Of a DNA stretch of 64,000 nt, positions 27,401 through 53,294 are shown in pieces. Below the pieces are notes generated by a model. That model made no database searches. It worked only from the letters and a program-made list of their open reading frames with translations, and was not told the origin of the DNA. Position 1 is the first letter of the stretch, and each line of letters begins with the position of its first letter. The DNA is taken from the NCBI GenBank assembly GCA_002633005.1, contig NMRA01000400.1, positions 62,001-126,000 of the forward strand, written 5' to 3'. This DNA comes from Phoronis australis. Lineage: Eukaryota; Animalia; Phoronida. The translations under genes were made by a program, and so were the position numbers.

Positions 27401-30400
27401 TCATGTTGCTACGAGTTAATTTAAAAATATTTCACCGTATTATTCCAAACAAGCTTAGCTTTTGAAAATGTGGAATTTATAGCAAAGGTTTATTGTTATT
27501 ATGCACTGCTCTCTAAAATGATGTTGGGAGTTATTATGGAAATGTTCCACTTTTACATGATTGGCTATCAAAGTAGAATTTTAATTTTTTATGAAAAAAA
27601 TACTAGTAAAATCTGCTTTTGAGATGTCATCATGAAAATTTATGAGATTTAATTCCTGGATACTGTTATTTTGTTAATATTGTACTGTAATGTCTTTTTT
27701 TTTTAAATTTTACTATAATATAAAAGGCATGGCCACGTGACCCAAATACCGATCAAGTGCATTCTTGGTATTAAATAGAATATCAAAGGTTTCATGTACT
27801 TTAAGAAAATGTTTTACTTTCACTAACAGAGTTGAGTTCTACAGTGTTGTGGATGTATGACTAAATGCACAGACGTGCGGTTAAGTCTTTAAAAACACGA
27901 CTTATTTTTAGAATTGATGGTTACATTGTGTGTGAAGAGATGAAGGACACCCTGCTGGCTGCATGGAACCAGGAACAGGAGATAATCCAGGAAAAGGAGA
28001 CTCAGGTAAGTTTGTGGATAGAGCTAGTCACGAGTGCTTGTTACATTAAACCATGTACCCTTATTGTGAACTGCTTGGGATCTACCGTGGGCCACTGCAT
28101 TGCTGTCTTTACTCTGCAGTTTTTTGTTTAATACAGCCATGTCATTTCTGAGGTTCATAGGATGCTGTATTTGCCAAAAATATTCGGACAACCCTTTTTT
28201 CCCACCATGATGGGCAAGGGTAATGACCTGTCCTCACTGTCTTGTTCTTGCTTCCGTGATCATAAATTTCACTTGCACCCAACCATCACTGAATGATCAC
28301 GGGTACTCTTGTTTATTTTAAGGTATTTTTTGCATGGACTGTAAGCATCTGCATTTACATAAAGTAAGATTTTTTCAATTTGAATTGTAAAAGGTTTTCA
28401 TATTAAAGAACTTCAAATTCTTTTTCGGTCAGAAAAGAGAAGCATTATTTTTGCAATTCGCCATGACTGCAAGTGCCAAGTACTAAAGTCTTCTTCAGCC
28501 TCATACAGAAAGCATGCTGGGTTTGAATTAAACAAAAACTTGAAGGTGATAAGTTGGGCAAAATTAGTGTTGAGAATGTACTGAAACTGTCCATTAGTAT
28601 TTTCAAACACAATTGCTCCTTTGTTGCTATTTTCAAACATGAATGCTCCTTTGTTACTATTTTCAAACATCATTGCTCCTTTGTTGCTATTTTCAACCAT
28701 GATTGTTCCTTTGTTGCTATTTTCAAACATGAATGCTCCTTTGTTACTATTTTCAAACATCATTGGTCCTTTGTTGCTATTTTCAAACATGACTGTTCCT
28801 ATGATTTAAGAAAAGGGAGAAGCGAGTGATAGAGCACTGGACAACATTAACACGTGGACTGTTGATTAGAGAGAGGCTGGAGAAAAAGTATAACCTGCAG
28901 GTATGTGCAACAGTGTGCTTAACGATTTGTTTCATGGAAGGAGAATGAGGCTCAACTCAGAAGTTTCATATTGTGTTGATACACCTGTGCTGCAATTATG
29001 GAATGAAATTTTTGCTCAAGAATTGTTAGACCATCACATTTAATATACATCTTTTAACTTTGGTCCAGCCATGAGAATATATTTTGTGAGACTTGAGATT
29101 TTTTTTCAAAAATGTTGTAAAGCCTTGTTGTACCCATGAGGTTTGTTAAGTTGTTGAGAATTAGTCCGATTTGGTAATCATCAGGTTTCACAATAACACC
29201 TCAACTTATTGCAGCCGTCGGATTTGCTAAGTAGTATTATACCACAATATAGGCGTCAAATGACAGATACAACCGTGTAATAACCCATAAAGTTATCTCA
29301 CTAGTGAGATAACCATTTGGCGGGAAACCGAGGACGGAGTCGAACCCGGAACCTTGAGTTTGCTGGTCGCCGACCTTAACCACTACACCACGCAGCAGCA
29401 GACGTCATGAAGAGTGAAAATATAATACTTAAATGAGCACGCGCAATAATGGCACGTTCAACAAATCGCATTGTATTGAACGTATACGCTACGAGAAATA
29501 AGACACATAATTTCCATAAAAATGATATCTTAATTCAATGAAATATTTCTCTCATGTCCTCTTACTTGTAAATCACCGATCTCCAGTTTGAATGCGGGTA
29601 TCGTGTCGTCAGGATCTTTGGCTTGAGAATTATATTCAGTTACCAGTGGTAACCTACTTTAGCAGACGATAATTTCCNTGGTTACATTGTGTGTGAAGAG
29701 ATGAAGGACACCCTGCTGGCTGCATGGAACCAGGAACAGGAGATAATCCAGGAAAAGGAGACTCAGGTAAGTTTGTGGATAGAACTAGTCACGAGTGCTT
29801 GTTACATTAAACCATGTACCCTTATTGTGAACAGCTTGGGATCTACTGTGGGTCACTGCATTGCTGTCTTTACTCTGCAGTTTTTTGTTTAATACAGCCA
29901 TGTCATTTTTGAGGTTCATAGGATGCTGTATTTGCCAAAAATATTCGGACAACCCTTTTTTCCCACCATGATGGGCAAGGGTAATGACCTGTCCTTACTG
30001 TCTTGTTCTTGCTTCAGTGATCATAAATTTCACTTGCACTCAACCATCACTGAATGATCATGGGTACTCTTGTTTATTTTAAGGTATTTTTTGCATGGAC
30101 TGTAAGCATCTGCATTTACATAAAGTAAGATTTTTTCAATTTGAATTGTAAAAGGTTTTCATATTAAAAAACTTAGTCAAATTCTTTTTCGGTCAGAAAA
30201 GAGAAGCATTATTTTTGCAATTCGCCATGACTGCAAGTGCCAAGTACTAAAGTCTCCTTCAGCCTCATACAGAAAGCATGCTGGGTTTGAATTAAACAAA
30301 AACTTGAAGGTGATAAGTTGGGCGAAATTAGTGTTGAGAATGTACTGAAACTGTCCATTAGTATTTTCAAACACAATTGCTCCTTTGTTGCTATTTTCAA

Positions 30401-31182
30401 CCATGATTGTTCCTTTGTTGCTATTTTCAAACATGAATGCTCCTTTGTTACTATTTTCAAACATCATTGCTCCTTTGTTGCTATTTTCAACCATGATTGT
30501 TCCTTTGTTACTATTTTCAAACATGACTGTTCCTATGATTTAAGAAAAGGGAGAAGCGAGTGATAGAGCACTGGACAACATTAACACGTGGACTGTTGAT
30601 TAGAGAGAGGCTGGAGAAAAAGTATAACCTGCAGGTATGTACAACAGTGTGCTTAACGATCTGTTTCATGGAAAGAGAATGAGGCTCAACTCAGAAGTTT
30701 CATATTGTGCTGATACACTTGTGCTGCAATTATGGTATGAAATTTTTGCTCAAGAATTGTTAGACCATCACATTTAATATACATCTTTTAACTTCGGTCC
30801 AGCCATGAGAATATATTTTGTGAGACTTGAGATTTTTTTTCAAAAATGTTGTAAAGCCTTGTTGTACCCATGAGGTTTGTTAAGTTGTTGAGAATTAGTC
30901 CGATTTGGTAATCATCAGGTTTCACAATAAAACCTCAACTTATTGCTGCCGTCGGATTTGCTAAGTAGTAATATCCTTTGCCCTCATCCAGTAGTTTATG
31001 TTACTTTGTATTGATTTGCTTGTTGGTGTTGTTAGAAAAAGCCAGAATCATTGACCACAGACAAGACTGAAAAGGCTACTGACGTTGAGGCATCTTGGCC
31101 AAGAAACCGAGAGACAAAGAAACCAGCAGGCAAGAAGAGTAAGAAAGAGCAAGCGCATCTGTTTCCATTTGAAAAGATGTGA
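15463..31182 (+). CDS. XPC: DNA damage recognition factor XPC (Rad4 family), ~967 aa, 18 coding exons
   Basis: Exons: 15463-16186, 16759-16843, 17733-17823, 18328-18543, 18721-18786, 18949-19400, 19878-19990, 20648-20698, 20975-21067, 22286-22441, 23847-23904, 24841-24997, 25439-25573, 26370-26451, 27028-27121, 27912-28005, 28811-28900, 31036-31182; phases are consistent (2904 nt). Motifs: [92 protein letters not shown]-terminal HLFPFEKM*. The start codon is tentative because an acceptor lies just upstream (15455). Confidence 0.95.
16975..17266. mobile_element. MITE-like element with ~70-bp terminal inverted repeats (XPC intron)
   Basis: ATTGCTATCTATGGACGGCCTGGTTTATTTGAGAACCTAGCTTTCG... is mirrored by ...CGAAAGCTAGGTTCTCAAATATAACCAGGCCGCTGATAGATAGCAAT. 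Confidence 0.8.
17923..18046 (+). pseudogene. Decayed partial duplicate of XPC coding exon 4 (pseudo-exon)
   Basis: 17938-18046 aligns codon by codon to 18373-18483 ([36 protein letters not shown] vs [37 protein letters not shown]) with a 2-nt deletion. Confidence 0.85.
21661..21855 (+). mobile_element. tRNA-derived SINE-like repeat (family A)
   Basis: A-box-like GGCCCAGTGG, B-box GGTTCGAGTC, and a body similar to 580-770. Confidence 0.6.
23351..23387. repeat. 11-bp tandem repeat (CACTAGTCTGG) x ~3.3
   Basis: Read directly from the sequence. Confidence 0.9.
28597..28805. repeat. 30-bp minisatellite, ~7 units
   Basis: Unit CTATTTTCAAMCATSAWTGYTCCTTTGTTR; it ends just before the acceptor of XPC exon 28811. 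Confidence 0.95.
29326..29400 (-). mobile_element. tRNA-like SINE head inside a copy-specific insertion (~29237-29677)
   Basis: TGGTGTAGTGGTTAAGG (A box) and GGGTTCGACTCC (B box). The acceptor and T stems do not pair properly, so this is not a functional tRNA. A perfect 22-bp palindrome lies next to it at 29292-29313. Confidence 0.55.
29679..30970 (+). repeat. Near-identical duplicate of 27918-29236 (XPC exons 16-17), starting right after a single N; probable haplotig overlap
   Basis: N at 29678. The copy starts 6 nt inside exon 16 and so lacks its acceptor. It differs by scattered SNPs, a 3-nt indel and one minisatellite unit (1319 vs 1292 bp). Duplicate exons are at 29679-29766 and 30545-30634. 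Confidence 0.9.
30361..30540. repeat. 30-bp minisatellite, 6 units (second copy)
   Basis: Same unit as 28597-28805, with a different unit number and order. Confidence 0.95.
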
Positions 31183-33987
31183 GATTGATGGCTTATTTCA
31201 GTTCACTTAGTCATGTGCTTTACCTCAGCTGATAGTTATGTACAAAAGTTCAACTTTTAGATTTAAAAATAATCATTTCACTTTGCTTGATTGTTTACCT
31301 ATGAAGACTTTCATTTGTTTTTTCAAATAATTTAGGAGGTGCGAAATTAGGCGAGTGTGCGAAATCAGTAGGGAATTACTGTATGTATTGAAATTCTGTT
31401 GTAGGTTATCAAACTAGTCAAGGACATATGGTGCAGTGTTTCTGTTTCGAATTGTTGAATATCATTGAAAGATGTTTTGTTTGCACTCTATTATTCACCC
31501 GTAGAGGAATGGGACTCAAAACTTCTATTAAAAGGAATCTCTCTGACATTAATGCCAACAGTAAAAGACAATTTAAAGTGGAATTAAGCATGTGATTACT
31601 GTGAAAAAAAGAGCTCTGAAAGACCTAATTATTTTTTTCTCTGACCAAGCTTTAAAAAATACAAACTTGTCAGTTCCTTGCAAATTCAGAAATCTTACAA
31701 ATTGAGACCCATTGCATAGGGCTTACCGTTAAGTGGCCTAAAATCAAGATGATTTTTTTTAGACTAGAATTACTGGTTTAATGCCACATTGGGTTGAAGT
31801 TGGTATTATATTACTGTATTTTCCAGACATTGTCAAGTATTTCTTTGTAATTGTGTCCATCCTTTCTTTCCAGTAAGTTTTAGATACATGTTCTGAAGTA
31901 ATGGCTGTAAATACTGCATCTTTTTGTCTCAAGTTTGTGGAACTTCAAAGCAAACTAATCTGCTAATGATTAACACTGTTCTTCAAGATTGAGTCATTAA
32001 AGATAGCTTGAAAATAGAAATGTAGAGTATTAGGTACGGTAAAATTTCACCAATTTCGTTGTTATGAATGCCTGCAATTTCTCAGCATCATTGTCTGCTG
32101 GTAGCTATAACATATCTAGTAGTACTTTTAAGATATTAAAATATCTTTTATAAAAGACAAAACAAAATTTTATCTTGTCATACACATTGTGTCCTTTACC
32201 GTAGTTCATAAACTCGTCAGTTATTACTAAATGTAGTTTCACAGTGTTACAAGTCATTGTAGTATCATCCACAATGGTCTCTGAACCAGCATATCTAGCT
32301 CTTCGTATTACCACAAAAGTCGTTTATTCTTTAAAACTACAAATTACTTTTTACCACCATGTTTGTGCTCATTAAGGCTCATTTGCCTTATAGTAAATAC
32401 AAGTAATTCACATTGCAACAAAATTCGGTCAAGTGTTTTGCACACAGAAGTTTCACTTTAAGGCATATGTCTTCAATGAGTTTTTTTGGTATCTGTTAAT
32501 TTGTAATATTGTAGGAAAACTTGAAAGAGTATGGGTAAAAAGCGACACAAGAAACACCCAGCGTGAGACTAGTACATTATAAATAGAAGAGACAATGCCT
32601 TGCACCTATAAGTGAAGATTGGGCGCATGTCCCTGTGTACAAAACATTGAGTAAAAAGTTTTTAAAAAATGCATAGGTGTGCAGGCATACGAGCACATAA
32701 TATATGTTATGCAAATCAAGATAATTAGTTGGTCTCTCAGGTAATTAAAAGATATTTTCTAAATAAACGTATTTTTGTATGACTTGTCATATATGTTGTG
32801 TACTTTTATACCTACCTTAAAAATTGTGATCTCATTGCCATAAAACACCAAAAATTAAACAATCTGGGGATTTCTGCGGAGACCCTCAAATTTAGGCCAT
32901 TATGTGGAAAATTTTCCTAAAAATTCATCACATTTTGGGCTACAAAGCAATTGTTTTATTACACCCTTTGAATTTTGAATAGCCCAACTTGGAATGGTTG
33001 TTAATGAGTGCTATTTTTGAAACTATGTCCAGGCTTATAACTGGGGTACATGTACTACACGTAGAAAGGTAATTATATGCAAATTTTTAATTAACACCTT
33101 GGGGCTTCCCATCAGAAATTCTTGGTAGTATATAAAACCAAAGCTATCAACTTGATATTTCATGTTGCTTAGGCAATCTAATAAATGATTCCTATATTTC
33201 TGGGCTTGGGAGGGATGGACAATTCTCGTCACTTAAACTGATGCGCCGTGACCGGCCAAGTTGACGAGTGTGGCATCGAGCAACATAGAACTGATCTTAC
33301 CAAGCGAAGAAATCACCACCTTGGATGTGGGAATAATTTGGGACCAATTAAAAGTGGGTGAGTGGGTGGGTTTACTTAACCCCCCCGTATTTCCAGTGGT
33401 GACAGACAAGTTTTTGACACATACTTTGACAGAAGCCAAGAATAGTACAGATGTGATTTCACATCTAATCTAATTTATCGCACCTAGACAAAAGTCTGGA
33501 TTGGGGCTAGCCCTGATCTAACCGCACATCAAAACCCATATCCAGACGCAGTTTAATCATGTTCGATAGGAACAGATTTTTGATCAGCACCGCAGTTTTT
33601 AATTTTTCTTGAATGACAAGATACAAATAAGCTAAAATCAGCAGCTATCAAGTATGTCCTAGCTTGATACCAATAGGAATAAAAAGAGAAATAGAATGCG
33701 TTGCTGATTTGCTATGACAGTATAAGCAAACCATGAGTGCACTAATTCTTTTTAAAAAACGATATTAATTAACTTCTCATTCTGTTCCCATTTTCTCATG
33801 ACATCAACAACTAATGACACAATTTTGTCAAATGTTTTTAAAAAAACTCATTTATTAGGAAACACTTGACTTGAGAATCATGGGTAGCTGTTGTATTTTA
33901 ATAATAGTGCAAGTCTAGATCAGTTCAAAATATCAATTGTTGAGGTCACATTTCTGCATTAAGACGAGTCTTTAGCATGTCTATATG

Positions 33988-36116
33988 TCAGGTTTTGTCT
34001 TGTCCTGTATCAGAAACATTGGTGACATTCTCACATTCTTTCGTATTTGTCTTTTTCTTTTCCTCGTTTGCATTTTTATCCAAAACCAATTCAGTCACAT
34101 TGATCTTGCTAGATTCATCAAGGCTAGAGTTATCTCCTCCACTGTTCTTTGTCTCGAAGTTATCTCCTCCAAGCTCACTCCCATTAGAGATCTCTCTCCT
34201 GTTCTCTTGCAAATTTGCTTGGTTCAGCTTCTGCGCTTCTTTTCGCATCTTTTCTTTTTCTTCCTCCACCAACTGGTCGAAATTCTGTAAGAAATGTGTA
34301 GCTGAATGGAGTGTTCATTACAAAACAAGATTCCGGGAAGTAGGGGGTTGAGGCTTGGTGTTGGCATAATGTAACAGACCCTTTAGAAATAAACTGGACA
34401 GACTTCAACAGAATTCTGTCAGAGTGCTAAAATTGGACAAACTTCTTGCTAGGAATTATTTGGTAATTTAGACAAACATCTGTCAAAATAAAATGACATT
34501 TTTCATGAACTTTAGTGCGACCTTTATGTGCCTAGCCGCTAAATGTTTAATTTGTAAAGGGACTCGCAAAGGAAGTTGTCGCGATTTCGATTAAGGTCAC
34601 AGAGCCACACCTGTTGAGATTTTGTCGAGAATTTTTAGGAAATGAAATGTAGATCTTTACATAGGTGCATCAAAACTTTGACGACTTTCAGAAGCCAAAT
34701 TCAATCATTGTGAAGGTCGTCTTACCTCATGACTGAGAATACAGAGGGAATTAAAAAAAAGTTAGTAAGGTGTATAAACCATTTTGTACAATTTAGGCAC
34801 TCTAATAGTTTTTATTACTAGTTATTTTCCTGTTTATAAAATGAGCCATCATGATGGAGCAACGGAATTTTTGCATTTCTTTTGACTCGTACTTTATTCC
34901 AGTCGAGTGCACTACGGCCATGTGACATTATTTTCCGTATTCACCTCCCGCACTACTTCAACAGTGACCTCTAACATGAAAAGTTCAAAAGGTAGGTCAA
35001 TGCTGACTAGATGTCATTAGCCGGTTTGATTATAAAACTTTCGAAAATATTTTAAAGTGATACAATAACAGCAGTATAAATAACACTCAACATGCAATCA
35101 GGTACCAAATGATACAACTGGTACAAAACACAATTAGGTGACATTTCTGTCTCAGTTTTCAATTGCTAAATATAATATAGTCTGCAACTCAGGCGCCGAT
35201 TCCTCGGTAACTGCAAAATCAAATTGTGTAGTTATTTAACTGTTTTCAGGAAATGTTACAAGTTCAATGCACAATTACCGTGTTTTCATCATCTCTTTTC
35301 AAGTGTCGGCAATAAATCGTTACATTTCTGTTTCTATTACTGGAGAAAACCTAATACGCAAGTACATACATATGGGATGTGATCCGCCACGTGAACAGTT
35401 TGGGTGAAGTATTTAAAAAATCTGCAGGAAAAATGAAAGAAAGTATAAGGAATTCGAAGCGCATGGGATAAACACATTATTTCGTGACCTCGATTGATAT
35501 GCGGAGTAACGTCTCGTGGCATGTTACTTCATCTACGCCACTCTCGGTACATTTTGTGTATGTATAAACATTCCTTCCATCACAAAAAACGTTTGGTTTA
35601 CAGTTGTCACTGCTTATCACTTCTTATCTATGTTAGGAACAAGTTGAGACCAGTTTTATAGCAATACGTGGTCTCAATTAAAAGTTCCAATCTTGGACAG
35701 AACGCTGGGATTCATAACCGCTATAAAGACAAAGTGGTGAGAATGTCAACAAACACTCAACCAGCAAGTTCACTACTCATCGACAAAGTTTTTGAGAACC
35801 TGCAGTGTTTTTCACTGACGAAGCAGGATACTTGTATCTTGTTTCACAAAAAATTTGCCATCTTTCCAAGGATCCGCCACGACAGGTAGTTTTTCTTTGA
35901 TTACCACCACAATTTTCACCATAACTTCAGAACAGAGCAAGAAAACTTAGGTTATAAGAATTCGTCAACTTGCTGAAAACTACAACCGCAACATTACGTA
36001 AGAAGTACCTTCATTGGCCTGTAGATGGAGTGCACAGTCTGCGAGCCAAGCATCATGGAGAACAGTGCCGCTGAGGAAGCTGCAATATAACGTGGCCACG
36101 AGACTCCAGCAGGCAT
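33988..36116 (-). CDS. UQCC6: Complex III assembly factor UQCC6 / Brawnin (C12orf73, Drosophila sloth2), 2 coding exons, ~134 aa
   Basis: Exon 36116-36009 encodes MPAGVSWPRYIAASSAALFSMMLGSQTVHSIYRPMK, with the family signature MPAGVS.....G...VH..Y(R/K)P. A phase-0 GT donor joins the TTTCTTACAG acceptor of exon 34284-33988 (NFDQLVEEEKEK...QDKT*). AATAAA on the minus strand at 33856-33851. The first exon is secure; the second-exon join is inferred. Confidence 0.88.
34931..35555. repeat. Dispersed repeat (family B) in the UQCC6 intron
   Basis: Colinear similarity over ~600 bp to 52768-53490 (TTTTCCGTATTCACCTCCCG..ACTTCAACAGTGACCTCT..; CCACTCTCGGTAC). Confidence 0.85.
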
Positions 36117-36208
36117 TGTAAATATCTGTACTTTCGGCAGAACCTCCTATTAGGAAGACACCAAATTTCCACAATACCAGCTTGGAGTTAGTTCAAGCAA
36201 TCTGTAAG

Positions 36209-37868
36209 TTAGCTAACCGACGCCACCTTTTGGGCATCCAGCTCCAGTTGCAACTGCCTGGCTGCTTCTTGTCGTACTTGCTTCTTGAGGAAAACTGAGT
36301 CTGGAAAAATCGAGGGTTTCTTAGTGGCAAAGACAAGGAACATAACAGGCTGAACTAACTATAATGGTGATTTTATTTCACAGCAAGTTTAAAAAGCCTG
36401 AGGGGCCTTTAGTCCTCATTTTTCATCTCACTAGTCGATATTTGAATTATAAAGTTGGCAAGTAGCCCAGTGCATACTGTAAGTTAAACACTGTTAACAA
36501 AAGGGCCTATAATGCAAAGATTCCAAATCCAGAATAAAACGTTCTTCAAGGAAGTTTGTAATCGTTTGCAACATCACAGTAGAACAGTTCAATGGTCAAT
36601 GTTTATTTAATGATAGTGACCTTTGAACTATTAATAGTCCTCTCATACCTCTATCTATACGCCAGTGAATGGTCAATTGTTGATATAATGGCGGCTATGA
36701 ATATGCATGTCACTAGATGGCGATTGAGTAGTTGCTGGACAGCATTCAGCATTTTTAAATGGGGATAAGATGCAGTGTGATTAATCCTAGCAATTTATGC
36801 AAATTCTTTGCCACCATTCTACCCGCAAATTACCGGTGTTGTGCAGCAATGCATTCAAAGAATTCACACAAAAATGTCTAACATCACAAAACTGATCAAA
36901 GTAACAAAATGTCCACGAAGAAAAAAATTTCAATTTGTCCCAGCCAACTCAGTCAGTCTTCCATGAACGGGGATTGGATACTGCAGCGAGCGACAGTCCT
37001 AAAACAATAGCTAGATTTGCATGTCAAATATTTGGAATTTAGAAGTCATTCTGACTGACAGGCAAAGAAACCAGTGCAAAATAAATCTTTCAGTCCCAAT
37101 GTCTACAGACAACAATAATTGGCCAAAACTTTTCTCATAGATAATTAGAATGCAGGATTGTCCCTGAGAACAACAGCAAGCAAGGTGTAAATTACGCATA
37201 GCGTTTTTGCATCCAAATTTCCTTTCTGTTAAATTCAGAAAAACAGCAGTTATGATTACATATTAATTTCACTTGCTGGGCATGTCACTATCAATTTCAC
37301 GGCAAAATAATAAAACTAAGTAACACTAAGTAACACCATTAAAATCATTTCTCCTGCAACTGTCAAACATGGTACACACCACGTTTGACTCCATTGTAGG
37401 GAGAACACTGGTATGTTACAAATCTTAGTGTGAAAATTCTTCAATTTGGGACAAAACAGTTATTGCTAAAATTGTCGTATTTCTATTTTTCAGAGGCTTA
37501 CCATATTGTTACTAATGCTCAAAATTTTACAATACTTTGTTTGTAATGGCTACACCATACAAACTACTCTAAGAGCAAACAGTAAATTTTCCCGAAAGCT
37601 TTTTTATTTTTAATGAGAAATTTGAATATAAAAATGAAATTACGCCTGTCCACCATAAAGCGCCCCAAACTGAAGAATTTTTATCATGACATAAATACGT
37701 ACAAAAATTGACTTCTCCAACTTTCCAGTTGATCATAGAAAACTCCAGTGCTGCTCCCAAAGTGAAAAACAGAGGCATGAAACGATAAATGCCAAATCTT
37801 TTCTTCCCCGGCCACTTATCCACTAGTGTCTTAAATCGCAGACTCAACAAACCTTTATCAAACTTCAT
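36209..37868 (-). CDS. UQCC5: Complex III assembly factor UQCC5 / SMIM4 (Drosophila sloth1), 2 coding exons, 85 aa
   Basis: Exon 37868-37703 encodes MKFDKG...WPGKKRFGIYRFMPLFFTLGAALEFSMINWKVGEVNF, with the family signature PGK.RFG.YRF.P.FF.LG..E..MI...VG...F. A phase-1 intron leads to exon 36300-36209 (YSVFLKKQVRQEAARQLQLELDAQKVASVS*). An acceptor at 37890 implies a 5' non-coding exon. Confidence 0.93.
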
Positions 37869-38248
37869 AATATTGAGACGTCCTACAACCTGAAAATATA
37901 AAACAAAATATTTTAAAATGACCTACAACGAACAAATTTTCCCAGCAGGATCACAGACTTACATAAAATTTTCCCCATCCCTATCTTGAACGAGCAACCT
38001 ACAGCAATGGTGTAGAAATTCAAAGTAGCAACTTAACATGACAAAACCACCAAGACTGAATGCTCAAGTAAGGAGCACTGACCACTAATGAAACAGCTTT
38101 AGATTAAAATGACAAGAGCATGTGGGGCCACAAAATCAAAATTTCTCATTATAAAAATGTCCACAATTCAACAATGCAATCCATACAATTCTCTCCCCAT
38201 GCTCCACTACTCCGTTTTCGACAGAGTATTTCAATTTGATGTTTTATT

Positions 38249-39482: not shown

Positions 39483-39665
39483 CACAGGCGTCCTCAGCTT
39501 CTGATCGCCGACAATATACTTTATAATACTAATAGTGTATTGTGGATGATCAGAAGCTGAGAACGCCTGTGGCACAGGCGTCCTCAGCTTCTAATCGTCC
39601 CCAATACACTACAGTAGTATTATATGTAGTGTATTGGGGACGATCAGAAGCTGAGGACGCCTGTG
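39483..39665. repeat. Two tandem ~90-bp palindromic MITE-like units
   Basis: Units at 39483-39571 and 39573-39665, each CACAGGCGTCCTCAGCTTCT(G/A)ATCG...GATCAGAAGCTGAG(A/G)ACGCCTGTG. A half copy lies at ~40445-40485. Confidence 0.9.
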
Positions 39666-39869
39666 GCCTGTGGCGCCCCAATTACGAATTAGCCTTACAA
39701 AATATGATGTCAAACATGGACCAATATTACTTAACATGTGCAGCAATGTCTCAGTGTAAAACAATGTTTTCACATGCACTGTCATTCAAAACTGTCTTCT
39801 ATAGGACATCGAGTGGCAGCACGTTCTAACTACACTAACGTAAAGTAAAATATCTAACCACTGAAGAAA

Positions 39870-39990
39870 CTCCGGTTTCGTCAGCTGGGAGCCGCCATAT
39901 TGTTTTCATATTGAGGCTGTTGTGGCATTCAAATAACTGTTCTGATTGGCCGGTCACATATTTCTCGGAGACTCAGAGCCAATCAAATTA
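39870..39990. promoter_or_regulatory. Candidate bidirectional promoter between UQCC5/UQCC6 (-) and TDG (+)
   Basis: YY1-type GCCGCCATAT (~39891-39900) and two oppositely oriented CCAAT boxes (ATTGG 39945-49, CCAAT 39979-83) lie between divergent genes. Motif evidence only; no TSS data. Confidence 0.45.
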
Positions 39991-40887
39991 CATTATACAG
40001 GGAATTAATGTTTATCTGCACCGGAGAAATTTAAAGGGACAAAGGTGTTTTTAAGGTACTTCAAAGTAATAGGAATATTTTTCGTAATTCAGTTGATCGA
40101 TCGAGAATTTACTTCTTAAATATGTTAACGAGAATCTATCTGACTTAAATCGCTCCTGTTTGCTTGACAGTCTGCCTTGCTTAAGTCAAATTGCTGACTG
40201 CATTTTTCCCTTCGCCCAATGTGGCAATGACTAGCAAAGCTACATTGACATTCCCCCATACTGGCTGCAGAGGTCAGGTGAACGCAATGAACTGAGCTGC
40301 CGTGCGCTATTGGTTTGCTGCACAGGCGTCTGAATTTTTCATTGATAATCTGGTAATTCTTTATAAATATGTAAGGTATGTCACATTTGTCCTAAATTCG
40401 TGAGAGTCCCAACTCCAGCCATATGTTAATTGTCTAGTTGTGATCACAGACGTCCTCAACATCTGATCGTCCCCAATACACTATATAGAACTACAAGGTA
40501 TGACACTCCGGACTAGAAATTCCACGGGTGCTTCACTTCAGCCGTCCATAGTAAACATAAAACTCAATAAATTTACACAAAACTGAGGTTCAACAAACAA
40601 TGAAGAATTGTTCTTTCTCCCAATACCATTAACGGTGCCCTGCTCCACCGAGTTTGCAAGAAATTCGCGGTCAAAGCACAAAAATCTTCCCAAAAAGCCC
40701 ATCTGGAGCAACTCCTTGGTCCCACATGCAGGGTACGGAATTATCTGTTGAGTTACGGATGTACGGCAATTGCCGATTCACGGCATCGATAACTCTGCAA
40801 CTGTACCCATGCTTGTCGGTCTTTTCAGTTTCCCGGGTGCATATTGGTGTGACAACTTTGAGGATTGTATTGGAAGACTTCACAGCA

Positions 40888-43800
40888 ATGGAAGCCAATG
40901 GTCTCAACTTGTAAGTACTCGCACTATATATATAACAGTAAGAAACATTCTACACTGTTCATCTCTCTCGCAGAGCATGTGTCTTTGGAGTCACCCAATA
41001 TCTGATTCTGGGATGCAAGACGGGCGGAATTGATAGCTTTTTGCGATTTCTTTCAGTCACAGACTTTGGAGAAGTTGGATATTTTTGTGTGTGTATAATT
41101 GACAACATGATAGTTGGAAATACCCCACTGCAATATATCCACTCAAGAATTCTAATGCTGGCCAACAACTACACTGTCACCACCTGGTATCTAGACATAT
41201 TTCATAGTGTTCTCCTCAGAAAGTTCAACATGTTTGGATGTCTGTGTCTATACTAAGGGGCATTTTTAGTTTTATGTTTTTAGTTTTGGAATGAATTATT
41301 GTTCTGGTGCCAAAAGTGTAAAATTTCCTAATTTGGTTAAGGAAAGAAATAATTGCATAGGTTTTCAAACTTTACTCAAGCAAGCCAAATGTGTCATGTT
41401 GAAATTAAGACTCGTTACTGCGATAAGTCAAAACAGTTGTCTACAACATTGTTTGATAATGTCACTGCTGTATTATCAGTTAGGAGAATAGCTGTCACAA
41501 AATCTCTGGTCACACAGGAGAAGGGCACTTTGTCTTGAAAGACTTTCAAAATTTTATTCACCATTTTAGTAACCTAAATTTTCTAATTTGTATATGTATG
41601 TATTAGTAAAACAACAATTGTGGATCAACTGAAATTTTCGGATATAATCACATCCTTTGTCAGGAGAAACAAAAATAAAGTAAAAATCTAACTCAGTACA
41701 TGAAAACTAGGCATTTTAAAGCGAAATCCTTATAGCGTAATGTTTTTTTTTATACAAACAAAGGTGTTCCTGATTTTCATGTTCTTTTTATCAATTCATT
41801 TTCTTAATTTATTTCAGCCCAGTGAAACAAGAGCAAGCAGCTTGCAATATCGGTTTTCCTCAGCCTCAGGTGCAAAACGATGTCGTGCCATCTTTTACCG
41901 TCAACCCTCCTTGGACCCAAAATGCAGCATATCAAGATGGTGGAGCTCTGATGCATGACCCCCTGGGTGGTGGTGCCCCTTTCCACCAGGTGTCCATGGG
42001 CAACAGTGGTGGGAAAAAACCCAGGAAGCGACCTGTCAAGGAAGAAATGAAGACAGAGTTCGAACCTGGGTATGTTGGTGATGGTGGAAAATGTATATCA
42101 TGTTTAATAGCTGAAGCTAGTGCTCATGAGAGCATTTTGAGAACCAGTTTGATGTCCATTGCTCAGTGAAGATGACTGGTTCTGGAAATGCAGAATCCCT
42201 ATAATTCACTCTTTCCCTCATCAGTAATTCAGGTAATGAAACTTAAAAGGATACAGACCCTGCTTTCATATATTTAATAGAATGGTGAACAATGACTTTA
42301 ATGTCCAATCATCTTGAACATAATGCTCTGTAACCCTGCTTAACCCTCAAAAGTTTGGGTCAAATGTGAAAGGTTGTTGAACAGGCAAGCGTGACCTACA
42401 CTTGAGGTGAATTACCGTGCAGAAAGACCACCCATCAAGAACCATAATATTCATTCTGTGACGCAGTCATTAAGTGTGTTAGTTGAATACTGTTTTTATT
42501 ACTAAACTGAGACACCAACTATGCATTAGCAGGGGAAAGAACAAGGATTGGTTGAAATCACCAAAACATGGTGTTGTATCCCTTAAGTAACTTTAGTAAT
42601 AATTTTCGTGTGTAGACAGTCTCTAAAATCTGGGAGACCGAAATTCAAGCAGAAGTAGATTTTTTAATCAATTCTGAAAATTGGGACGTAGGTGATTTTG
42701 GCTGTCATCAAAGTTTTCAATTATCAGACATTGTATTTTGTATCAACAGAGTCTGAAAATAGACTTAGCAGGTGATAAATTTATTTAAAATGGCAACGTT
42801 TTCATGCATCCACATACCACTCGGAGGTGGTGGCGTGTTAGAACTATTTACATTGTCACTTTCTGCCATGTAAGTAGACCAAGAGATTTTAATAATAGTT
42901 CTCATAGTTTGTAACATCAAGATGAATGATCGTTTGTTGTTGATTGTAACTCATGCATTTGGGACGAACAATATTGCTAGCTTAAAAATTTGGTACAATC
43001 CTCGACCTTAACAAACTAAGTGATATTTCACTGTAAAATAGTTCCAAATTTTTACTGCACAGTCAATAACTAGTATTTAAAATAGTATGACCAGTACATT
43101 CAAATGCATATTGTCAACTCAAAGTTTTTTATGGAACTACGTTACAGTTTATCTTTTGTGTGCCTTGTCACAACAAGGTAATTATAAGAATGATTTAAAA
43201 GGTAATAGAGACACTAAGCAGGAACTGATTAAGCATTTCTTTTATACTAGAACCTGATTCAATTCTGGCTAAACCTAGACAAAATCTTGACAGATGTTGC
43301 TTCATGCATTTTGTTGAAATCAATGCAAGTTACCTTGCACTTCACAAATGAAAATTATTGGCTCATACGCAGTTGCATTTCAGTAAACTCTGACACAACT
43401 TTGGCCAAAAAATGCTGCCGAGAAGTTCATTCAAGTTTGCCAATTAAAGATGAACAGAGTTGTGCTAAAGACTGAAGAACCCAAGAATGTTCTCTTGCAT
43501 TACAGTGTGTCGTATCCAAATGGTGTGTTGTCAGGGACCAACATGGCCATCAAGCAAGAGAAGATCACAGATCACGTTAAGGTGAAAAAGAAGCGAGACC
43601 GCTTCAAGGGGATGTCAGAGGAAGAAGTCCTGAAGAGGGTGCTGCCTGATCACTTGACCCATGACCTCGATATTATCATAGTCAGTAAATGTTCTTATTT
43701 GTATTGGCGGCGTATATAACCTCTAAGTGTTTGCGTCATAGAATTTTTTTAAGTCTGTTATTATGGACATCTTACAATAGCCTGCTCTGGCGATTTGTAA

Positions 43801-46800
43801 GAATCTTGTCGGTTACTTTGCATCCTACCACTGTGCAAAGTGTCAATGAGCAAAATGTAGATTTTAAAGGTAGATTTTATCATTTGAAGTGCCAGTATTT
43901 AGGTTCAGGAGAACCAATAGTTCAGTGCATAGCAGGGCATAGTATGGTGATATTCTAATTAAAATTGTCTTTGTAGGAATAACTGTTGAGATTCCTGGAA
44001 CAAAAGAATCAATTTGCCTTGAAGTCTTATGGTGGCAAGTGCTCAGAATTATTCCCAATGTTTGGTTACTGCAGCTTCATAATATTCCAATGCAATAAAA
44101 CTCTCAGGATTTTTGCTGAGAAATTTGACAGAACAGTAGATGTCACTCCATTTGTGTTGCATCAGCAGTGACCCTGGTGTTGGTTTATTGAACTAGTTGG
44201 TGACCCTCAATGTTCAATCTGTGTCCTCATAGTCCCGAGGTACAAACATTCCACCCATTAACACCCATACTGTGTATTTGAGCTTGTCACTTTAATCTTC
44301 CGTAACATTTAGCTGGAGGCTTCAAAAAATTTACATTACACTTTTTTAATCAAGTTTTTTAATCAAACTGTGGCATCTCTCCACAGGTTGGAATCAACCC
44401 TGGCTTGACTGCTGCGTTTGTCGGCCATCACTATGCTGGCCCTGGCAACCATTTCTGTAAGTGGCTTATGTAGAGAACTACAAGGTTTTTATAATCTTTT
44501 GCTAACATCAACTTCCTGAATGTAAATGGATGTAAACCTTTTAAACTGAAGTATGGTGGTTCACTATCTGCATTCGTTAGATGATCTTATTTTGTTTCGT
44601 GCTATATTTAATAATAAGTTTCTTTTTCAAAATCCATCTTATCTGTATGTGCTTGTGTGGTGTGGGACATTATGAAAGTCAGGTGTGTTTGTTTGATATG
44701 TGCAATATTAATGATTATACATGTGACTATGTCTGACAAGAAATCCTACTATCATTGTAGTTGAATTTCTTGCCGCAAAAAGTCACTCAGCTTTTAAATA
44801 AAAATAAAAGTGAAGATGTTAAACATGTATGTGTAAATACAGTTGTGTCTTTTTTCAGGGAAGTGTCTCTTCCTGTCTGGTCTCATCCCAGAACAGATGA
44901 ATGCTTATCAAGACTATAAACTGCTAGAACATGGTATTGGATTCACCAACATCGTGGAGCGGACTACTCGAGGTAGTGCTGACCTCACTAGGTAAGAGTT
45001 AACAATAAACTCATTTTTTCTGACTGGCAGATATCACCGGGTCATCCGCTGTCCTTGTGCACATTGTAATTGGCCAAAAACTCATATTTGGTTCTGGTCT
45101 GCTTCCTCATTCATTTTGAAACCTGTGCCTCAGCGCTTAAAATATAAAAATAAGCACCCACCTGTATTGTTTTGGAAGTTCTCAATCGTTTTTACTCACA
45201 AGTCACATATTAAGCATGTACTTTCTGGTTTTTAAATGAATCAACTCGTCAACTTGGCCACAGTCACTCGCTTATTTGTCTTAATCAATTGAATATAACA
45301 TATTTTCAATGAATAGATTGTATTAATTGATTGAAGACATGTCATAATCACTGCAGCCTTTCGGCATCAATAGATCAGAAACAACTAAACGTATTTTTGA
45401 CCTTATCTGAAATCATCGCTCCACGTCATAAGGTCACAAAACTATTTAGTTTTAGAATCTGTGATTATAGTGACTAATCTAATCACCGTTTAAGTCATGT
45501 TAGTTTGATTAATTCCAGTAAGTTTCAGCCTGTGGTAATACCACCATATCTAAAAGAGAAACTCAAAGTAACTACGTCACCTTCTTAGGAAGTCCAGACA
45601 GTTTGTAGCATTTTGTTGAATGTGTTATGTTTTCCCAGGAAAGAGATTAAGGAGGGAGGGGAGATCCTGAAGAAGAAAATTCAAAAGTTCAAACCCAAAA
45701 TTGCAGTTTTCAATGGCAAAGGTAAGATTAGATGGTGGGGCATACTAAGATGCGATTTGAGTTCTTGTCATAACCACACTTGACCTTGGCTAAACAACTG
45801 AAGTCACATTGTTATAAGCACCTTTCAATCATAAAGGGATGCAGTATATGTCTTAAAATTCTTCCAACTCTAACAACTGTTTCCAGAATCAAGATTTTCT
45901 TTGATATGTCCCTTCGTTTGCGAACAGAATTAAGAATTGACCTCCATGGCTTCCAATAAAGTCAAGGTCAAACTTAAATGTACAGGGAGTTGTGGGGAGG
46001 TTGTCTGTCTGCTAGTCATACCAAGAAGATTTTTCTTTGATATGTCCCTTCGTTTGCGAACAGAATAGTCCTTTTGCGAGTTTATAACAATAACGCGAGA
46101 TTACGTGAGACTTAACTGTGACGTCACGGGAAGTGGGGCAAAAGCTTGGCGTTTGGCTCATTTGCCCAATACGTTAGCAGAGTGTATTCTGTTATTTTCT
46201 TCCACTTTTTGGCCGTTTAGTTCGAAAAATGACAAACAAGCATAGCTGCTTTGGCAGATGAAATTCAGATTCGCACTACAATACGTTCTATCGCGTTTTG
46301 TACTAATTTGGTTTCGTGTATTTTAAACGGGCGATAGGCGAAATCCGTTCACTGATTAAGTTTTCACCACGTCAAAAATACATTCTACATCTAAAATTTT
46401 CACCTAAAAAGGCGCTTACTTTCTCCAGTGGTACTCTCTGCTTCTAAACAGATCTTCGATGAAGCATAGCTACGGTAATTTAGGTGACTTTGGCGAAGAA
46501 TTCCAACTCCACATTGTCGTTACTGTTAACTTAAACCGCGCGCGCGATAACCACAAAGTAGTTCAACTGGTCAGGTGAGTATGAGGCAAAGGCTAGCGCG
46601 ATACTGAGTGAACCGCGAGACCTGGCGCGTGACACTTGCAAAATAACATGAGAACATATCAAGTGAATTTGTAAGATTTGTGTTCCTTGGACTTATTGTT
46701 CGTGATTTCACGTAACTTCCTCAAAATGGCGCCCTGTGAGAGAAACTTGAGCGAAACGCGAGGTTTTCATGGATAGATTCAAGTTATTTGTAGACTAAAT

Positions 46801-49139
46801 TGTATCCAGAGTCAGGGTATGTGTTAATTAATTATAACTCCATGTGCGCATATGCATATTTCATTTGATTTTATTTGCTGCATTTTGAAGTGAGTAACTT
46901 TTTATGGGGAGAAACTATCGCCCCTGTGTGCCTGCATTCAGGCCTAGACCGGGTTTCAGCCCGTTCACAGCTTCGCACAACATAACAAGTTCACATTTTC
47001 TTCGTCCATTCACAGTTATTCCACGATCCATCTACCATCTTTTAAGTTGTGTTAACGTTTTAAGCGTAAAATTCACCATAAGAACTCCAGTAAAATTTAG
47101 CATGTGTAGCAAAGACTCGGGGCCAAACAAGAGCAATATGGCGGGTTTTGCCCCTTTTCCGGTGACGTCACATCGACTAACGAGAAACTCGCAAGTGAGC
47201 TATTAAGAATTGACCTCCATGGCTTCCAATAAAGTCAAGGTCAAACTTAAATGTACAGGGAGTTGTGGGGAGGTTGTCTGTCTCCTAGTCATACCAAGAA
47301 GTGGCAGCAAACACTGGGTACCTGTCTAAAGTAAGGTAAACTCAACGTATGAAGTGTCAAGAAAACTTCAAAACAGCTGATAGGAGAATGAACACCTCTG
47401 CTAGGGTGTAATGACAAGAATATTTAATGGTTGGATTTTGACTGCAATGAGCATTATATTTGAAAATTTTGACTTTTATCATTGTCCGACCTATTTGTTG
47501 TCATTATGTAAGCACGACAATCAAAATTTCAGTCTGGGGGATCATAATTTGAGCACAGCGGGCAAAACTTATGCTTGGAAGGTCAAAATTTGAGTTCGAT
47601 AGCCTGTTACGATAGGGCACGCTTGTGGGAACTCAATGTAAATGTGATGACACGCAAGTAAGTTTGTGTTTCATACACTGTACTTGTCTGTATGCCTAAA
47701 GACAGATTTTGTGGGCAGTGCACCAGGCCCTGAATCCCCTCTTGGAGCATCCTAGATCTTCAAGCAGTGTACTTTCTATCTTTAAGTTACTTCTTTCCGT
47801 TGCATTTTCAATTGTTATCGTCTGCTGTATGAAAGTTAAGTTTGTCTGGCTTATCTATATGGTTCCAGGTATTTATGAAGTGTTCTGTGGACACAAGAAG
47901 TTCAGCTTTGGAAAACAGCCAGACCCTTTTCCAGATACAGACACAGTGAGTGTTGATGTTTGACCTATTTGCAAAACCTGTTATAGAATCTTAATTTGTT
48001 TTTGACAATTATTCTACTGTTAGGATCAGTTATTTTATTAAAGTTCGTTAATCGTAGCACAGAGAAAAAGTGTGATCTGAAAGATATTGGGCACGAATCC
48101 CTGAAGTTTTGAGATTGCATTCGTTAAACGGGTGTAATGGGAAAACTTCACTCCCTTTTGGTTTGCTCTGTAGGTGATCTATGTCATGCCCTCATCCAGC
48201 GCCAGGTGCACCCAACTTCCAAGAGCCATAGACAAAGTTCCCTTCTACAATGCACTGAGGAAACTACGCGATCACTTACGTGGGCGTCTGACTCAGCTCG
48301 ATGATTCAGAAATTGTGTTTCCTGACGTCTTCCTCAAGACTGCTGTTAAGGTCAAGCCAGAGGTCAAAGAGGGACCTGCAGACGTGTCTGGTGCCATTAC
48401 TAGTGAGCAAGAATCTCAACCAGTGAAGAAAAAAAGAGGTCGGAAACCTGGGTCAAAGGTTAAAACAGAGGCCACTGGTGGCGATTACAGCGAAAATGGC
48501 AGTTGTGGACGGCATAGGTTCACTCAGGGTCATGACCCATCTGAAATGTTTGGTTCTTTAAACCAAGGTGGGGCATGGCTGCAGCCAGTTCGCGATGTGG
48601 GGGACATGAATCCAAATTCAGCTCAGAATGTCGGCATTCCTTCTAGTCAACATTTAGAATTGTTTCAACCTCAATTTGACATTGCCAATTATTCTCAGGG
48701 TTATGGAGGAGATTTTACCTCCACTCACAACCAACAGGTGTCCTCAAGTGGCAGCATTCAGAATGAAAACGCACAAAACCTGCATTTGAACTACTCTTCT
48801 GCCTCTGCTATGACTCAGCAATATTGGCATGACAGTGTACAGAATGGATTTTACCCCCAGCATGCCTGTGGCCAGTCACAGACAGGTCAACCATGGCAAC
48901 TACCCTTAAGCCAGTCAGAGTCCACATCATTTAGTCAATCGCAGATGGCCTCGAGTTCTCAGCATGCAACAAGTTCTGAGATGAGTCAAAGTCGGCAAGG
49001 GTTTGCCCAATACCTGTCTCAGTTCAAGCATGAGAGTGGTGTTGGGTCTTCGCAATCGTTTGACTTAAGCCAGTCCAGTAGTGGCTATCAATCTGATATA
49101 GGGCAAAATTGTGGGGGCCAACACAATCAATTAACATGA
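40888..49139 (+). CDS. TDG: G/T mismatch-specific thymine DNA glycosylase (TDG/MUG family), ~592 aa, 8 coding exons
   Basis: Exons: 40888-40910, 41818-42069, 43506-43680, 44387-44456, 44859-44991, 45639-45721, 47869-47945, 48174-49139; phases are consistent (1779 nt). Catalytic motifs: [55 protein letters not shown]. The first exon (MEANGLN) is less certain. Confidence 0.95.
45891..46066. repeat. 135-bp tandem duplication; the second copy is split by the adjacent insertion and resumes at 47202-47301
   Basis: AAGATTTTCTTTGATATGTCCCTTCGTTTGCGAACAGAAT occurs at 45891 and 46026; TAAGAATTGACCTCC...CATACCAAGAAG occurs at 45931 and 47204. Confidence 0.9.
46067..47201. mobile_element. ~1.13-kb non-autonomous TIR element with AT target-site duplication (ISL2EU/Harbinger-like, tentative)
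   Basis: Left end AGTCCTTTTGCGAGTTT; reverse complement of the right end AGCTCACTTGCGAGTTT. Subterminal inverted GTGACGTCAC..GGAA..GGGGCAAAA at both ends. AT is duplicated relative to the empty site at 45925-45935. Confidence 0.8.
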
Positions 49140-52340: not shown

Positions 52341-52767
52341 GCAGATGACAGCAAAAGAAAGTATTTCGATTATTCCATGTTTTAGCAGTGGCATCAAGTG
52401 ACTCGTCCGAAGACAGAGGGACGCTGTTTAGACTGGTAAAATAGGACATTGTTTATAACCGTGTGGCTGATAGGCCTACTCCCCGGCCACCACTGAAATT
52501 GTCTGGCATGACCAATTTTGATACAGTGGATTACGTAGTAGGTATCGAAGGCAGTTTGAAGTGGTTACTAAAAAAAGTTGATCTAGCTCAATTTTTAGTG
52601 TCATTCTTTGGGTCCCCTGACCACACCCACCAGAGCGAACCTGCCGCGTAGAGGGCCATTTCCAAACATGATCGAGGATACCCATAGACCACTGTGGTAC
52701 CAAAGAAAATTGGTTACCTTTTCATGCCCAAAAAAGCTCTGAGATCCCGGTCTATTTAATAATATGT

Positions 52768-53231
52768 TTTCCGTATTCACCTCCCGTACTACTTCAACAG
52801 TGACCTCTGACATGAAAAGTTCAAGAGGTAGGTCAATGTCGACTCGACGTCGTTAGCCGGTTCTATTACTTTCCGAAATAGTTTAAAGTAATGCAATTGC
52901 AGCAGTATAAATAATACTCAACATGCAATCAGGTCCCAACCGTAACATCTGGAACAGGACTACTAATTATATGACAGTTGCAGATCTGACCTTTACAGTT
53001 TCAATTGCAACAACGCAGGCGCCGATTCCTTGGTAACTAAAGTATCAAATATTGTTGTTATTCAACTATTTTCAGGAAATGTTACAAGTTCAATGAACAA
53101 TTACCGTTGTTTTCATCTTTTGTTATCTCTTTTCAAGTAATAAATCGTTACAATTAAAACTGTTTCTTTTACTAGAGAAAACTTGAAACCTAACGCGCAA
53201 GTACATACATATATAGGATGTGATCCGCCAC

Positions 53232-53294
<63 letters not shown>

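What the first reader, a model, noticed from the sequence alone, without database searches (positions are those of the whole stretch)
33988..37889. Probable bicistronic mRNA: UQCC5/SMIM4 and UQCC6/Brawnin appear to share one exon, 92 nt apart
Seen: the UQCC5 stop (TAA, 36211-36209) is followed after a 92-nt spacer by the UQCC6 ATG (36116). They are on the same strand but in different frames. The spacer has no ATG and no AATAAA and leaves little room for a promoter. One exon (36300-36009) would therefore carry the end of ORF1 and the start of ORF2, and an AATAAA follows ORF2. The conserved Brawnin exon has 36 codons and is absent from the ORF track, so a one-ORF-per-gene pipeline could drop or fuse it. 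Known: both microproteins help assemble mitochondrial complex III; they are bicistronic in Drosophila (sloth1/sloth2) and unlinked in human. Inference: this is an operon-like eukaryotic transcript kept in another lineage. ORF1 has A at -3, two internal in-frame ATGs and one out-of-frame ATG, so simple leaky scanning looks inefficient and re-initiation or internal entry is more likely. The ORF1 stop lies ~200 nt upstream of a further intron, so the mRNA must also escape NMD.
Basis: partly seen in the sequence, partly recalled or inferred. Interest (0 to 1): 0.88.

Follow-up and report, generated by a model that had tools for sequence, protein, structure and literature searches.

The report
Two-protein mitochondrial mRNA with leader uORF
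One spliced messenger RNA here carries two small genes of known mitochondrial complex III assembly families, a layout already published for flies, sea squirts, lampreys and choanoflagellates; a tiny upstream reading frame likely helps ribosomes skip the first gene to reach the second.

Summary
ORF1 (85 aa) is SMIM4/UQCC5 (PF15114, E 3e-25) and ORF2 (134 aa) is Brawnin/UQCC6 (PF14990, E 3e-15). Stranded RNA-seq shows one four-exon transcript with even depth across the 92-nt spacer and no listed joint or start inside it. Both ORFs therefore very likely share an mRNA, although no single molecule spans both junctions.

The layout is known: eLife 82709 reports it in fly, choanoflagellate, sea squirt and lamprey, 42 of 50 related loci show it, and this scan met the pair before in another genome.

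New: an unnoticed first exon (39899-39859) holds a strong-context 5-codon uORF ending 43 nt before ORF1, but it lies at the very 5' end of the reads. In 8 of 8 non-redundant spliced-leader (copepod) contigs, a short uORF overlaps or abuts the ORF1 start. This resembles the uORF bypass of KSHV ORF35-36. It is untested, and the 8 form one clade.

The parts
39945..39983 (.). Two CCAAT-box-like words (ATTGG 39983-39979, CCAAT 39949-39945 on the - strand) just upstream of the mapped 5' end; likely promoter
   Evidence: Sequence; function inferred
39859..39899 (-). First exon, about 41 nt as far as reads reach; true cap probably a few bases further, below about 39912
   Evidence: Junction 39859/37889 in 9, 3, 8 reads; longest sides reach about 39896-39899; no depth of this strand in bin 39905-40044
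39881..39898 (-). 5-codon uORF, A at -3 and G at +4, in a YY1/TISU-like word (consensus recalled); ends 43 nt before the ORF1 AUG; at the extreme 5' end, so its use is uncertain
   Evidence: sequence; read ends
37703..37889 (-). Second exon: 21 nt of leader, ORF1 start (37868) and 55 codons of SMIM4/UQCC5 including the hydrophobic segment
   Evidence: PF15114 E 3e-25; 45 of 45 homologues carry PF15114; junction reads
37703..37852 (-). 150 nt skipped by a minor donor at 37853; leaves a 35-codon ORF1 without the hydrophobic core and without both in-frame internal AUGs
   Evidence: 4, 1, 0 reads from about 3 start sites, against 17, 17, 10 for the main junction; translation
36009..36300 (-). Shared exon (292 nt): end of ORF1, spacer, first 36 codons of ORF2
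   Evidence: Both flanking junctions read-supported; even depth
36117..36208 (-). 92-nt spacer; no ATG or poly(A) signal; no significant structure (z -1.67); 2 nt shorter in the contigs of run X1
36009..36116 (-). ORF2 conserved part, Brawnin/UQCC6, AUG with A at -3
   Evidence: PF14990 E 2.7e-15
33851..34284 (-). Last exon: 98-codon charged, low-complexity ORF2 tail (stop ends 33988), 3' UTR, AATAAA at 33856-33851
   Evidence: depth falls to near 0 below 33868 and an X1 contig ends at 33850; no Pfam hit for the tail

Best explanation
This is a four-exon transcript whose shared exon carries the end of a SMIM4/UQCC5 reading frame and the start of a Brawnin/UQCC6 reading frame; both proteins are likely made from the same mRNA, the second likely by scanning ribosomes that skip the first start codon. 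Shown: both families, the exon structure, the strand, and even depth through the spacer. Inferred steps: (1) Ribosomes load at the cap. (2) Some start on the strong-context 5-codon uORF, stop 43 nt before ORF1, resume scanning and pass the ORF1 AUG before they can initiate again; others simply leak past it. (3) They pass three weak internal AUGs and an AUG-free spacer and start ORF2. (4) Translation of ORF2 crosses the last exon junction, which would clear it and spare the mRNA from NMD. (5) The split would balance two proteins whose ratio matters in flies. Odds: one mRNA about 0.92; scanning bypass about 0.7; a real contribution of the uORF in this species about 0.4.
For: Pfam. Junctions, strand and depth in 3 raw RNA runs of one study, plus spliced contigs of a second study. 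Internal AUG contexts T/C, T/A, T/C at -3/+4. 42 of 50 related loci have ORF2 downstream on the same strand. Spacers are 1-223 nt in all three frames across 24 non-redundant models, so no fixed stop-start geometry is needed, and spacer ATGs number 7 against 26 expected. In 13 of 13 contigs with the CopepodSL leader (8 non-redundant, 51-80% ORF1 identity) an upstream AUG lies in the 10-49 nt leader. In the 8, the first uAUG has a purine at -3 and the uORFs end 0 to +34 nt from the ORF1 AUG; 11 uAUG in 193 nt against 0.012-0.015 per nt. Fly reporters support scanning bypass. The KSHV uORF2 bypass is a tested precedent. Reinitiation after long ORFs usually needs extra elements, and downstream translation displaces NMD triggers (review passages).
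Against: No single read, pair or long read is shown to span both junctions; the 3 raw runs come from one study. Reads end at about 39896-39899, so the uORF AUG (39898) may lie too close to the cap or outside some mRNAs, and the word may be only a DNA element. The window's uORF does not overlap the ORF1 start, unlike the copepod and KSHV cases. The 8 leader-bearing contigs fall in one clade (support 89/82), so they are not independent, and no control set of other copepod leaders was available. Out-of-frame ATGs inside ORF1 are not depleted (21 observed, 19.1 expected). The ORF1 AUG has A at -3. A CAG/TAG lies within 15 nt before ORF2 in 13 of 21 spacers against a 32% background, which fits a splice acceptor in relatives. 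A first-exon YY1-like word was not found consistently in 19 genomic relatives. No translation data.
Confidence: 0.65

Rival explanations
1. Plain leaky scanning only, as in the published fly model: the uORF AUG is too near the cap to be used, or the word is only a promoter (YY1-type) site. This is a sub-case of scanning bypass.
For: Reads reach only about 39896-39899. Fly Kozak mutants fit leaky scanning. The printed choanoflagellate leader has no uAUG and a weak ORF1 context (by eye).
Against: The ORF1 AUG here has A at -3, and 17 of 24 models have a purine at -3 of ORF1, so a weak ORF1 context is not general. uAUGs are kept in 8 of 8 divergent copepod leaders.
Confidence: 0.3
2. One reading: ribosomes finish the 85-codon ORF1 and re-initiate across the 92-nt spacer, or enter internally in the spacer.
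For: The spacer is AUG-free, and 92 nt lies within the 79-140 nt range quoted for preproinsulin reinitiation. The minor isoform shortens ORF1 to 35 codons.
Against: The spacer has no significant fold (z -1.67, 16 of 200 shuffles as good). Spacer length and frame vary freely, 1-223 nt (2-nt deletion in X1). In flies, impairing ORF1 raised ORF2 output. Reinitiation after long ORFs usually needs special elements.
Confidence: 0.15
3. ORF2 is mostly made from separate or ORF1-less mRNAs: splicing or trans-splicing onto the spacer AG at 36126, an internal start, or the short-ORF1 isoform.
For: CAG 9 nt before the ORF2 AUG here, and CAG/TAG in 13 of 21 spacers. Depth rises from 55 to 74 by 36087. The minor donor gives 5 of 49 junction reads.
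Against: Depth is the same on both sides of 36126 (55 and 55), the rise lies inside ORF2, no joint into the spacer reaches the listing threshold (3 reads from 2 starts), and no start pile-up is listed. 254 and 42 loose ends were not shown, so a minor form is not excluded.
Confidence: 0.12
4. ORF2 is an untranslated relic in the 3' UTR of a normal SMIM4 mRNA.
For: No peptide evidence. The tail is long and variable: 3 of 3 listed tail differences in X1 change the residue.
Against: The reading frame is intact across an intron, the core passes the Pfam cut-off, and the one X1 difference listed in the conserved part is silent.
Confidence: 0.04

Closest known systems
Drosophila sloth1-sloth2 bicistronic gene, with its choanoflagellate, sea squirt and lamprey counterparts (PMC9681215; section 5, passages, and Supplementary file 1 cut at about 400 letters per record)
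   Same: Same two families, same order and strand, different frames, one transcript; unlinked only in jawed vertebrates.
   Different: Spacer 92 nt against 5 nt in fly; ORF1 AUG with A at -3 against a weak context; ORF2 134 aa against 61; an intron inside ORF2. The paper does not discuss leader uORFs: 'uORF' occurs once, as an analogy for sloth1 itself.
KSHV ORF35-37 polycistronic mRNA (PMC3561293; abstract and section 8)
   Same: Works like it, if the model holds: a short strong-context uORF takes ribosomes past the first gene's AUG and lets them reinitiate at the second. The copepod relatives have the same overlapping geometry.
   Different: Cellular gene, no homology. In this window the uORF ends 43 nt before ORF1 instead of overlapping it. 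Dependence on the uORF is untested.
Green algal bicistronic mRNAs (PMC11892635; abstract and outline)
   Same: Two ORFs on one mRNA, scanning past ORF1, AUG-poor stretch before ORF2.
   Different: Those have weak ORF1 contexts and AUG depletion before ORF2; here depletion was found only in the spacer, not inside ORF1.
TISU / YY1-type start element (consensus recalled; PMC13334024 passages say TISU lowers leaky scanning from very short leaders)
   Same: The word around the uORF AUG matches 11 of 12 letters of the recalled consensus and lies at the 5' end.
   Different: TISU normally starts the main ORF; here it would start a 5-codon uORF. Characterised in mammals (recalled); not tested in this animal.

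Membership tests
sloth1/sloth2 (UQCC5-UQCC6) bicistronic gene | Upstream ORF is SMIM4/UPF0640 | tested here: met
   PF15114, 88.3 bits, cut-off 27
sloth1/sloth2 (UQCC5-UQCC6) bicistronic gene | Downstream ORF is Brawnin/DUF4516, same strand, separate stop and start | tested here: met
   PF14990, 56.2 bits
sloth1/sloth2 (UQCC5-UQCC6) bicistronic gene | Both ORFs on one mature mRNA | tested here: met
   Shared exon with both junctions and even depth; short reads only, no single-molecule proof
sloth1/sloth2 (UQCC5-UQCC6) bicistronic gene | Both peptides are translated and act in complex III assembly | not testable with these tools
   Transferred from fly, human and zebrafish work as cited in PMC9681215
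Fly-type leaky scanning by weak ORF1 context | Pyrimidine at -3 of the ORF1 AUG | tested here: not met
   A at -3, A at +4: intermediate, not weak
KSHV ORF35-36-type uORF bypass (mechanism only) | Short uORF in a strong context inside the mRNA leader | tested here: inconclusive
   A at -3, G at +4, 5 codons, but reads end at about the AUG itself
KSHV ORF35-36-type uORF bypass (mechanism only) | uORF overlaps the first gene's start codon | tested here: not met
   Ends 43 nt upstream in the window; overlaps or abuts in 8 of 8 spliced-leader relatives
KSHV ORF35-36-type uORF bypass (mechanism only) | ORF2 output depends on the uORF AUG | not testable with these tools
   Needs a reporter or ribosome profiling
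Trans-spliced operon (resolved to single-gene mRNAs) | Leader added, or transcript cut, in the spacer | tested here: not met
   No depth step at 36126, no listed joint or start; minor forms not excluded because not all loose ends were shown

The most novel reading that the evidence does not exclude
Animal UQCC5-UQCC6 mRNAs are functionally tricistronic. A short leader uORF, kept or re-invented across copepods, lamprey, sea squirt, fly and this animal, acts as a ribosome splitter that sets the ratio of the two complex III assembly factors and could make it respond to eIF2 stress. This would be a cellular counterpart of the KSHV ORF35-36 switch and would revise the published weak-Kozak model.
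Probability: 0.35. Interest if true: 0.68.

Novelty: new member of a known kind. Interest (0 to 1): 0.42.

Why it matters
The two-gene mRNA itself confirms a published ancestral arrangement in one more animal and flags a gene that one-ORF pipelines would drop. The added value is the mechanism. If a short uORF divides ribosomes between the two genes, it would explain how ORF2 is reached where ORF1 has a good start context (17 of 24 models have a purine at -3). It would tie the ratio of two dosage-sensitive assembly factors to translational control. It can be tested at once in the existing fly reporter, whose retained 5' UTR holds two unremarked short uORFs (by eye).

Tried and rejected
No whole genome is held, so a second copy of either gene and genome-wide start contexts could not be checked.

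No homologue search for ORF2 was possible: its conserved exon is under the tool's minimum length. A local tblastn against the fetched loci was used instead.

Lineage is not fixed. A P450 search found nothing at E 1e-20 and the protein atlas did not answer. Named hits of a glycosylase exon were octopus, bivalves, moths and one fish. The tree is largely unresolved (1 of 21 branches starred).

Negative or irrelevant tests:
- Out-of-frame ATG depletion in ORF1: none (21 against 19.1). The codon pool came from the same sequences, which lowers power.
- Structured or IRES-like spacer: not significant.
- Conserved YY1-like first exon in 19 genomic relatives: no consistent hit.
- In-frame ATG at 39909 that would add 24 residues to ORF1: rejected, because no read of that strand reaches 39905.
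- Bacterial promoter scan of the spacer: not applicable to an animal.
- No listed run was on record as an RNA holder; that blank is no evidence, and the lays were used instead.
- No complex prediction was sent: binding is published for the fly pair and is not claimed here.

Literature: searches for sloth1 + uORF (2 of 3 listed), bicistronic/SMIM4/Brawnin (20 of 22 listed), UQCC5/UQCC6 (14 of 14 listed) and sloth1/bicistronic (top 10 listed) showed no paper on leader uORFs of this gene. Two hits were read for the term. Subscription journals are not covered, and eLife supplement 4 (zip) could not be read.
Full report
1. Observation. On the minus strand, ORF1 starts at 37868, splices from 37703 to 36300 and stops at 36211-36209 (85 aa). 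A 92-nt spacer without ATG, AATAAA or ATTAAA follows. ORF2 starts at 36116 in another frame, has 36 codons before a donor at 36009, and ends at 33988 in the next exon (134 aa); AATAAA lies at 33856 (one search used an acceptor one base off, corrected). The ORF1 exon matches PF15114 (E 3e-25) and the ORF2 exon PF14990 (E 2.7e-15), both far above the curated cut-off; the 98-codon tail matches nothing. All 45 homologues of the ORF1 exon carry PF15114, and some are named SMIM4, UQCC5 or sloth 1.

2. Transcript. Four runs under one species label were laid: three raw stranded RNA-seq runs of one study, about 18-19% of each read, and older contigs of a second study. Exonic reads come from one strand only. 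Junction reads were 39859/37889: 9, 3, 8; 37703/36300: 17, 17, 10; 36009/34284: 31, 19, 15; and a minor 37853/36300: 4, 1, 0. Summed depth was 55 at 36153, 55 at 36125, 55 at 36118 and 74 at 36087. No joint into the spacer and no start or end pile-up was listed; 254 and 42 loose ends were not shown. One X1 contig runs from 36245 across the stop and spacer to the ORF2 donor. This makes one bicistronic mRNA of about 970 nt very likely, but it is not single-molecule proof.

3. A first exon outside the finding. The transcript begins about 2 kb upstream. Reads reach about 39896-39899 and none of this strand lies at 39905-40044; two CCAAT-like words lie 45-85 nt further up. At 39898 an AUG with A at -3 and G at +4 opens a 5-codon uORF that ends 43 nt before the ORF1 AUG in the spliced leader. 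The word around it resembles the YY1/TISU element (consensus recalled). Because reads end at the AUG itself, I cannot say that the uORF is used. RNA-seq usually loses a few 5' bases (general knowledge), so a leader of 2-14 nt is plausible.

4. Relatives. A scan of metagenome contigs gave 50 loci. In 42 of 50, a Brawnin ORF lies downstream on the same strand. Of the other 8, seven enter an intron and end 624-1990 nt later, while this intron is 2.2-2.9 kb in close relatives; one (L008) looks spliced and shows no Brawnin in 1251 nt. I modelled 35 loci plus the window and dropped 15 (8 without ORF2, 5 without an ORF1 start, 2 without an acceptor), leaving 24 non-redundant models. The ORF1 start of L031 was moved by hand to match L036. 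Spacers are 1-223 nt in all frames, and long genomic ones may hold introns. Spacer ATGs were 7 against 26 expected; out-of-frame ATGs inside ORF1 were not depleted (21 against 19.1). Five of 14 genomic loci have a GT after ORF2 codon 36, as here. The search patterns favour protostome-type SMIM4, so this is no unbiased survey.

5. A repeated uORF. Thirteen contigs begin with a word that matches CopepodSL (Table 1 of PMC4664967, passages), which marks their 5' end and puts both ORFs behind one leader. All 13 have an AUG in the 10-49 nt between leader and ORF1. In the 8 non-redundant ones (ORF1 identity 51-80%), the first uAUG has a purine at -3 and the uORFs, 2-14 codons, end 0 to +34 nt from the ORF1 AUG. 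There are 11 uAUGs in 193 nt against 0.012-0.015 per nt; about 2 of 8 leaders would have one by chance (Poisson p 2e-4). They form one clade (89/82), so this shows conservation within one group, not eight events, and I had no control set of other copepod leaders. Reading the eLife supplement by eye (records cut at about 400 letters): lamprey has an out-of-frame AUG 7 nt before ORF1 (15 codons, overlapping); sea squirt has a 4-codon uORF ending 1 nt before ORF1 (it could be lost if an AG there is a splice acceptor); fly has a 5-codon uORF and an AUG-stop; the choanoflagellate has none and a weak ORF1 context. uORFs are common in animal leaders (about half of human mRNAs; PMC13762970, abstract start), so the distant ones in fly and in this window are weak evidence alone. 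Against the model, a CAG/TAG lies within 15 nt before ORF2 in 13 of 21 spacers against 32% background, so in trans-splicing relatives ORF2 could also get its own mRNA.

6. Mechanism. Shown: families, exons, shared exon, contexts. Inferred: ribosomes reach ORF2 by scanning past the ORF1 AUG, partly after translating the uORF and partly by leak, then pass three AUGs that all have U at -3 and no G at +4. The conserved Ser-Met AUG is also in fly, where impairing ORF1 raised ORF2 output; this argues against re-initiation after ORF1. The spacer has no significant fold and no fixed length. The minor isoform, 5 of 49 reads from about 3 start sites, would leave a 35-codon ORF1 and could add ORF2 output. 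ORF2 translation crosses the last junction, which offers an NMD escape (review passages); NMD was not tested. X1 differences: silent at 36087, residue-changing at 3 of 3 listed tail sites; one silent site in ORF1 in X2 and X3. Only the 40 best-supported differences were shown, so these counts are partial.

7. Known systems. It is a member of the sloth1-sloth2 gene kind. PMC9681215 (section 5, passages, supplement 1) already reports the layout in fly, choanoflagellate, sea squirt and lamprey and its loss in jawed vertebrates. If the uORF model holds, it works like KSHV ORF35-37 (PMC3561293, abstract and section 8), but the window fails the overlap feature. The host is an intron-rich animal, probably a protostome from named hits; the phylum is not fixed.

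8. Verdict. The uORF splitter is the part worth pursuing (probability 0.35, interest 0.68 if true). No paper on it turned up.

Noticed in passing
window 34767-34720 (-): Perfect TACTAAC branch word, pyrimidine tract, CAG, 7 nt and a GTAAG donor inside the ORF2 intron: a candidate microexon (34732-34726) that would stop ORF2 at 37 codons. No joint or inserted letters for it were listed.
   Followed up: partly
L019, L020, L021, L024, L025, L028, L029, L032, L033, L034, L036, L037, L039 (5' ends): CopepodSL-capped contigs holding both ORFs, each with an upstream AUG next to the SMIM4 start: evidence that the pair stays on one mRNA in a trans-splicing lineage.
   Followed up: yes
L008 1-1446: Spliced-looking SMIM4 contig with no Brawnin in 1251 nt downstream, but with upstream AUGs in its short 5' part; possible unlinked case or misassembly.
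   Followed up: partly
L031 and L036, last 20 nt of the spacer: A conserved acceptor-like word ends 5 nt before the ORF2 AUG; it may be a trans-splice site giving ORF2-only mRNA.
   Followed up: no
window 41774-49139 (+): Thymine DNA glycosylase-like gene divergent from this locus; one exon hits proteins named G/T mismatch-specific TDG or carrying PF03167.
   Followed up: partly
window 2010-10530 (-): Cytochrome P450 exons (PF00067 at 2010-2540 and 7961-8320).
   Followed up: no
window 15436-21129 (+): Long lysine- and serine-rich exons of a large gene, XPC-like by recalled motifs only; no Pfam hit below E 0.05.
   Followed up: no
window 27918-29240 and 29679-30974: 1.3-kb tandem duplication at 95% identity holding a 30-nt minisatellite; the window's only N (29678) lies between the copies, so it may be an assembly artefact.
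   Followed up: no
window 34931-35565, 37430-37543, 39483-39667: Intronic repeats read on both strands by diverged reads; the first has a copy at 52767-53299.
   Followed up: no
run X1 on window 33850-36245: Contigs differ from the window by about 3% and lack 2 nt of the spacer, while X2-X4 match almost exactly: a distinct population or cryptic species under one label.
   Followed up: partly
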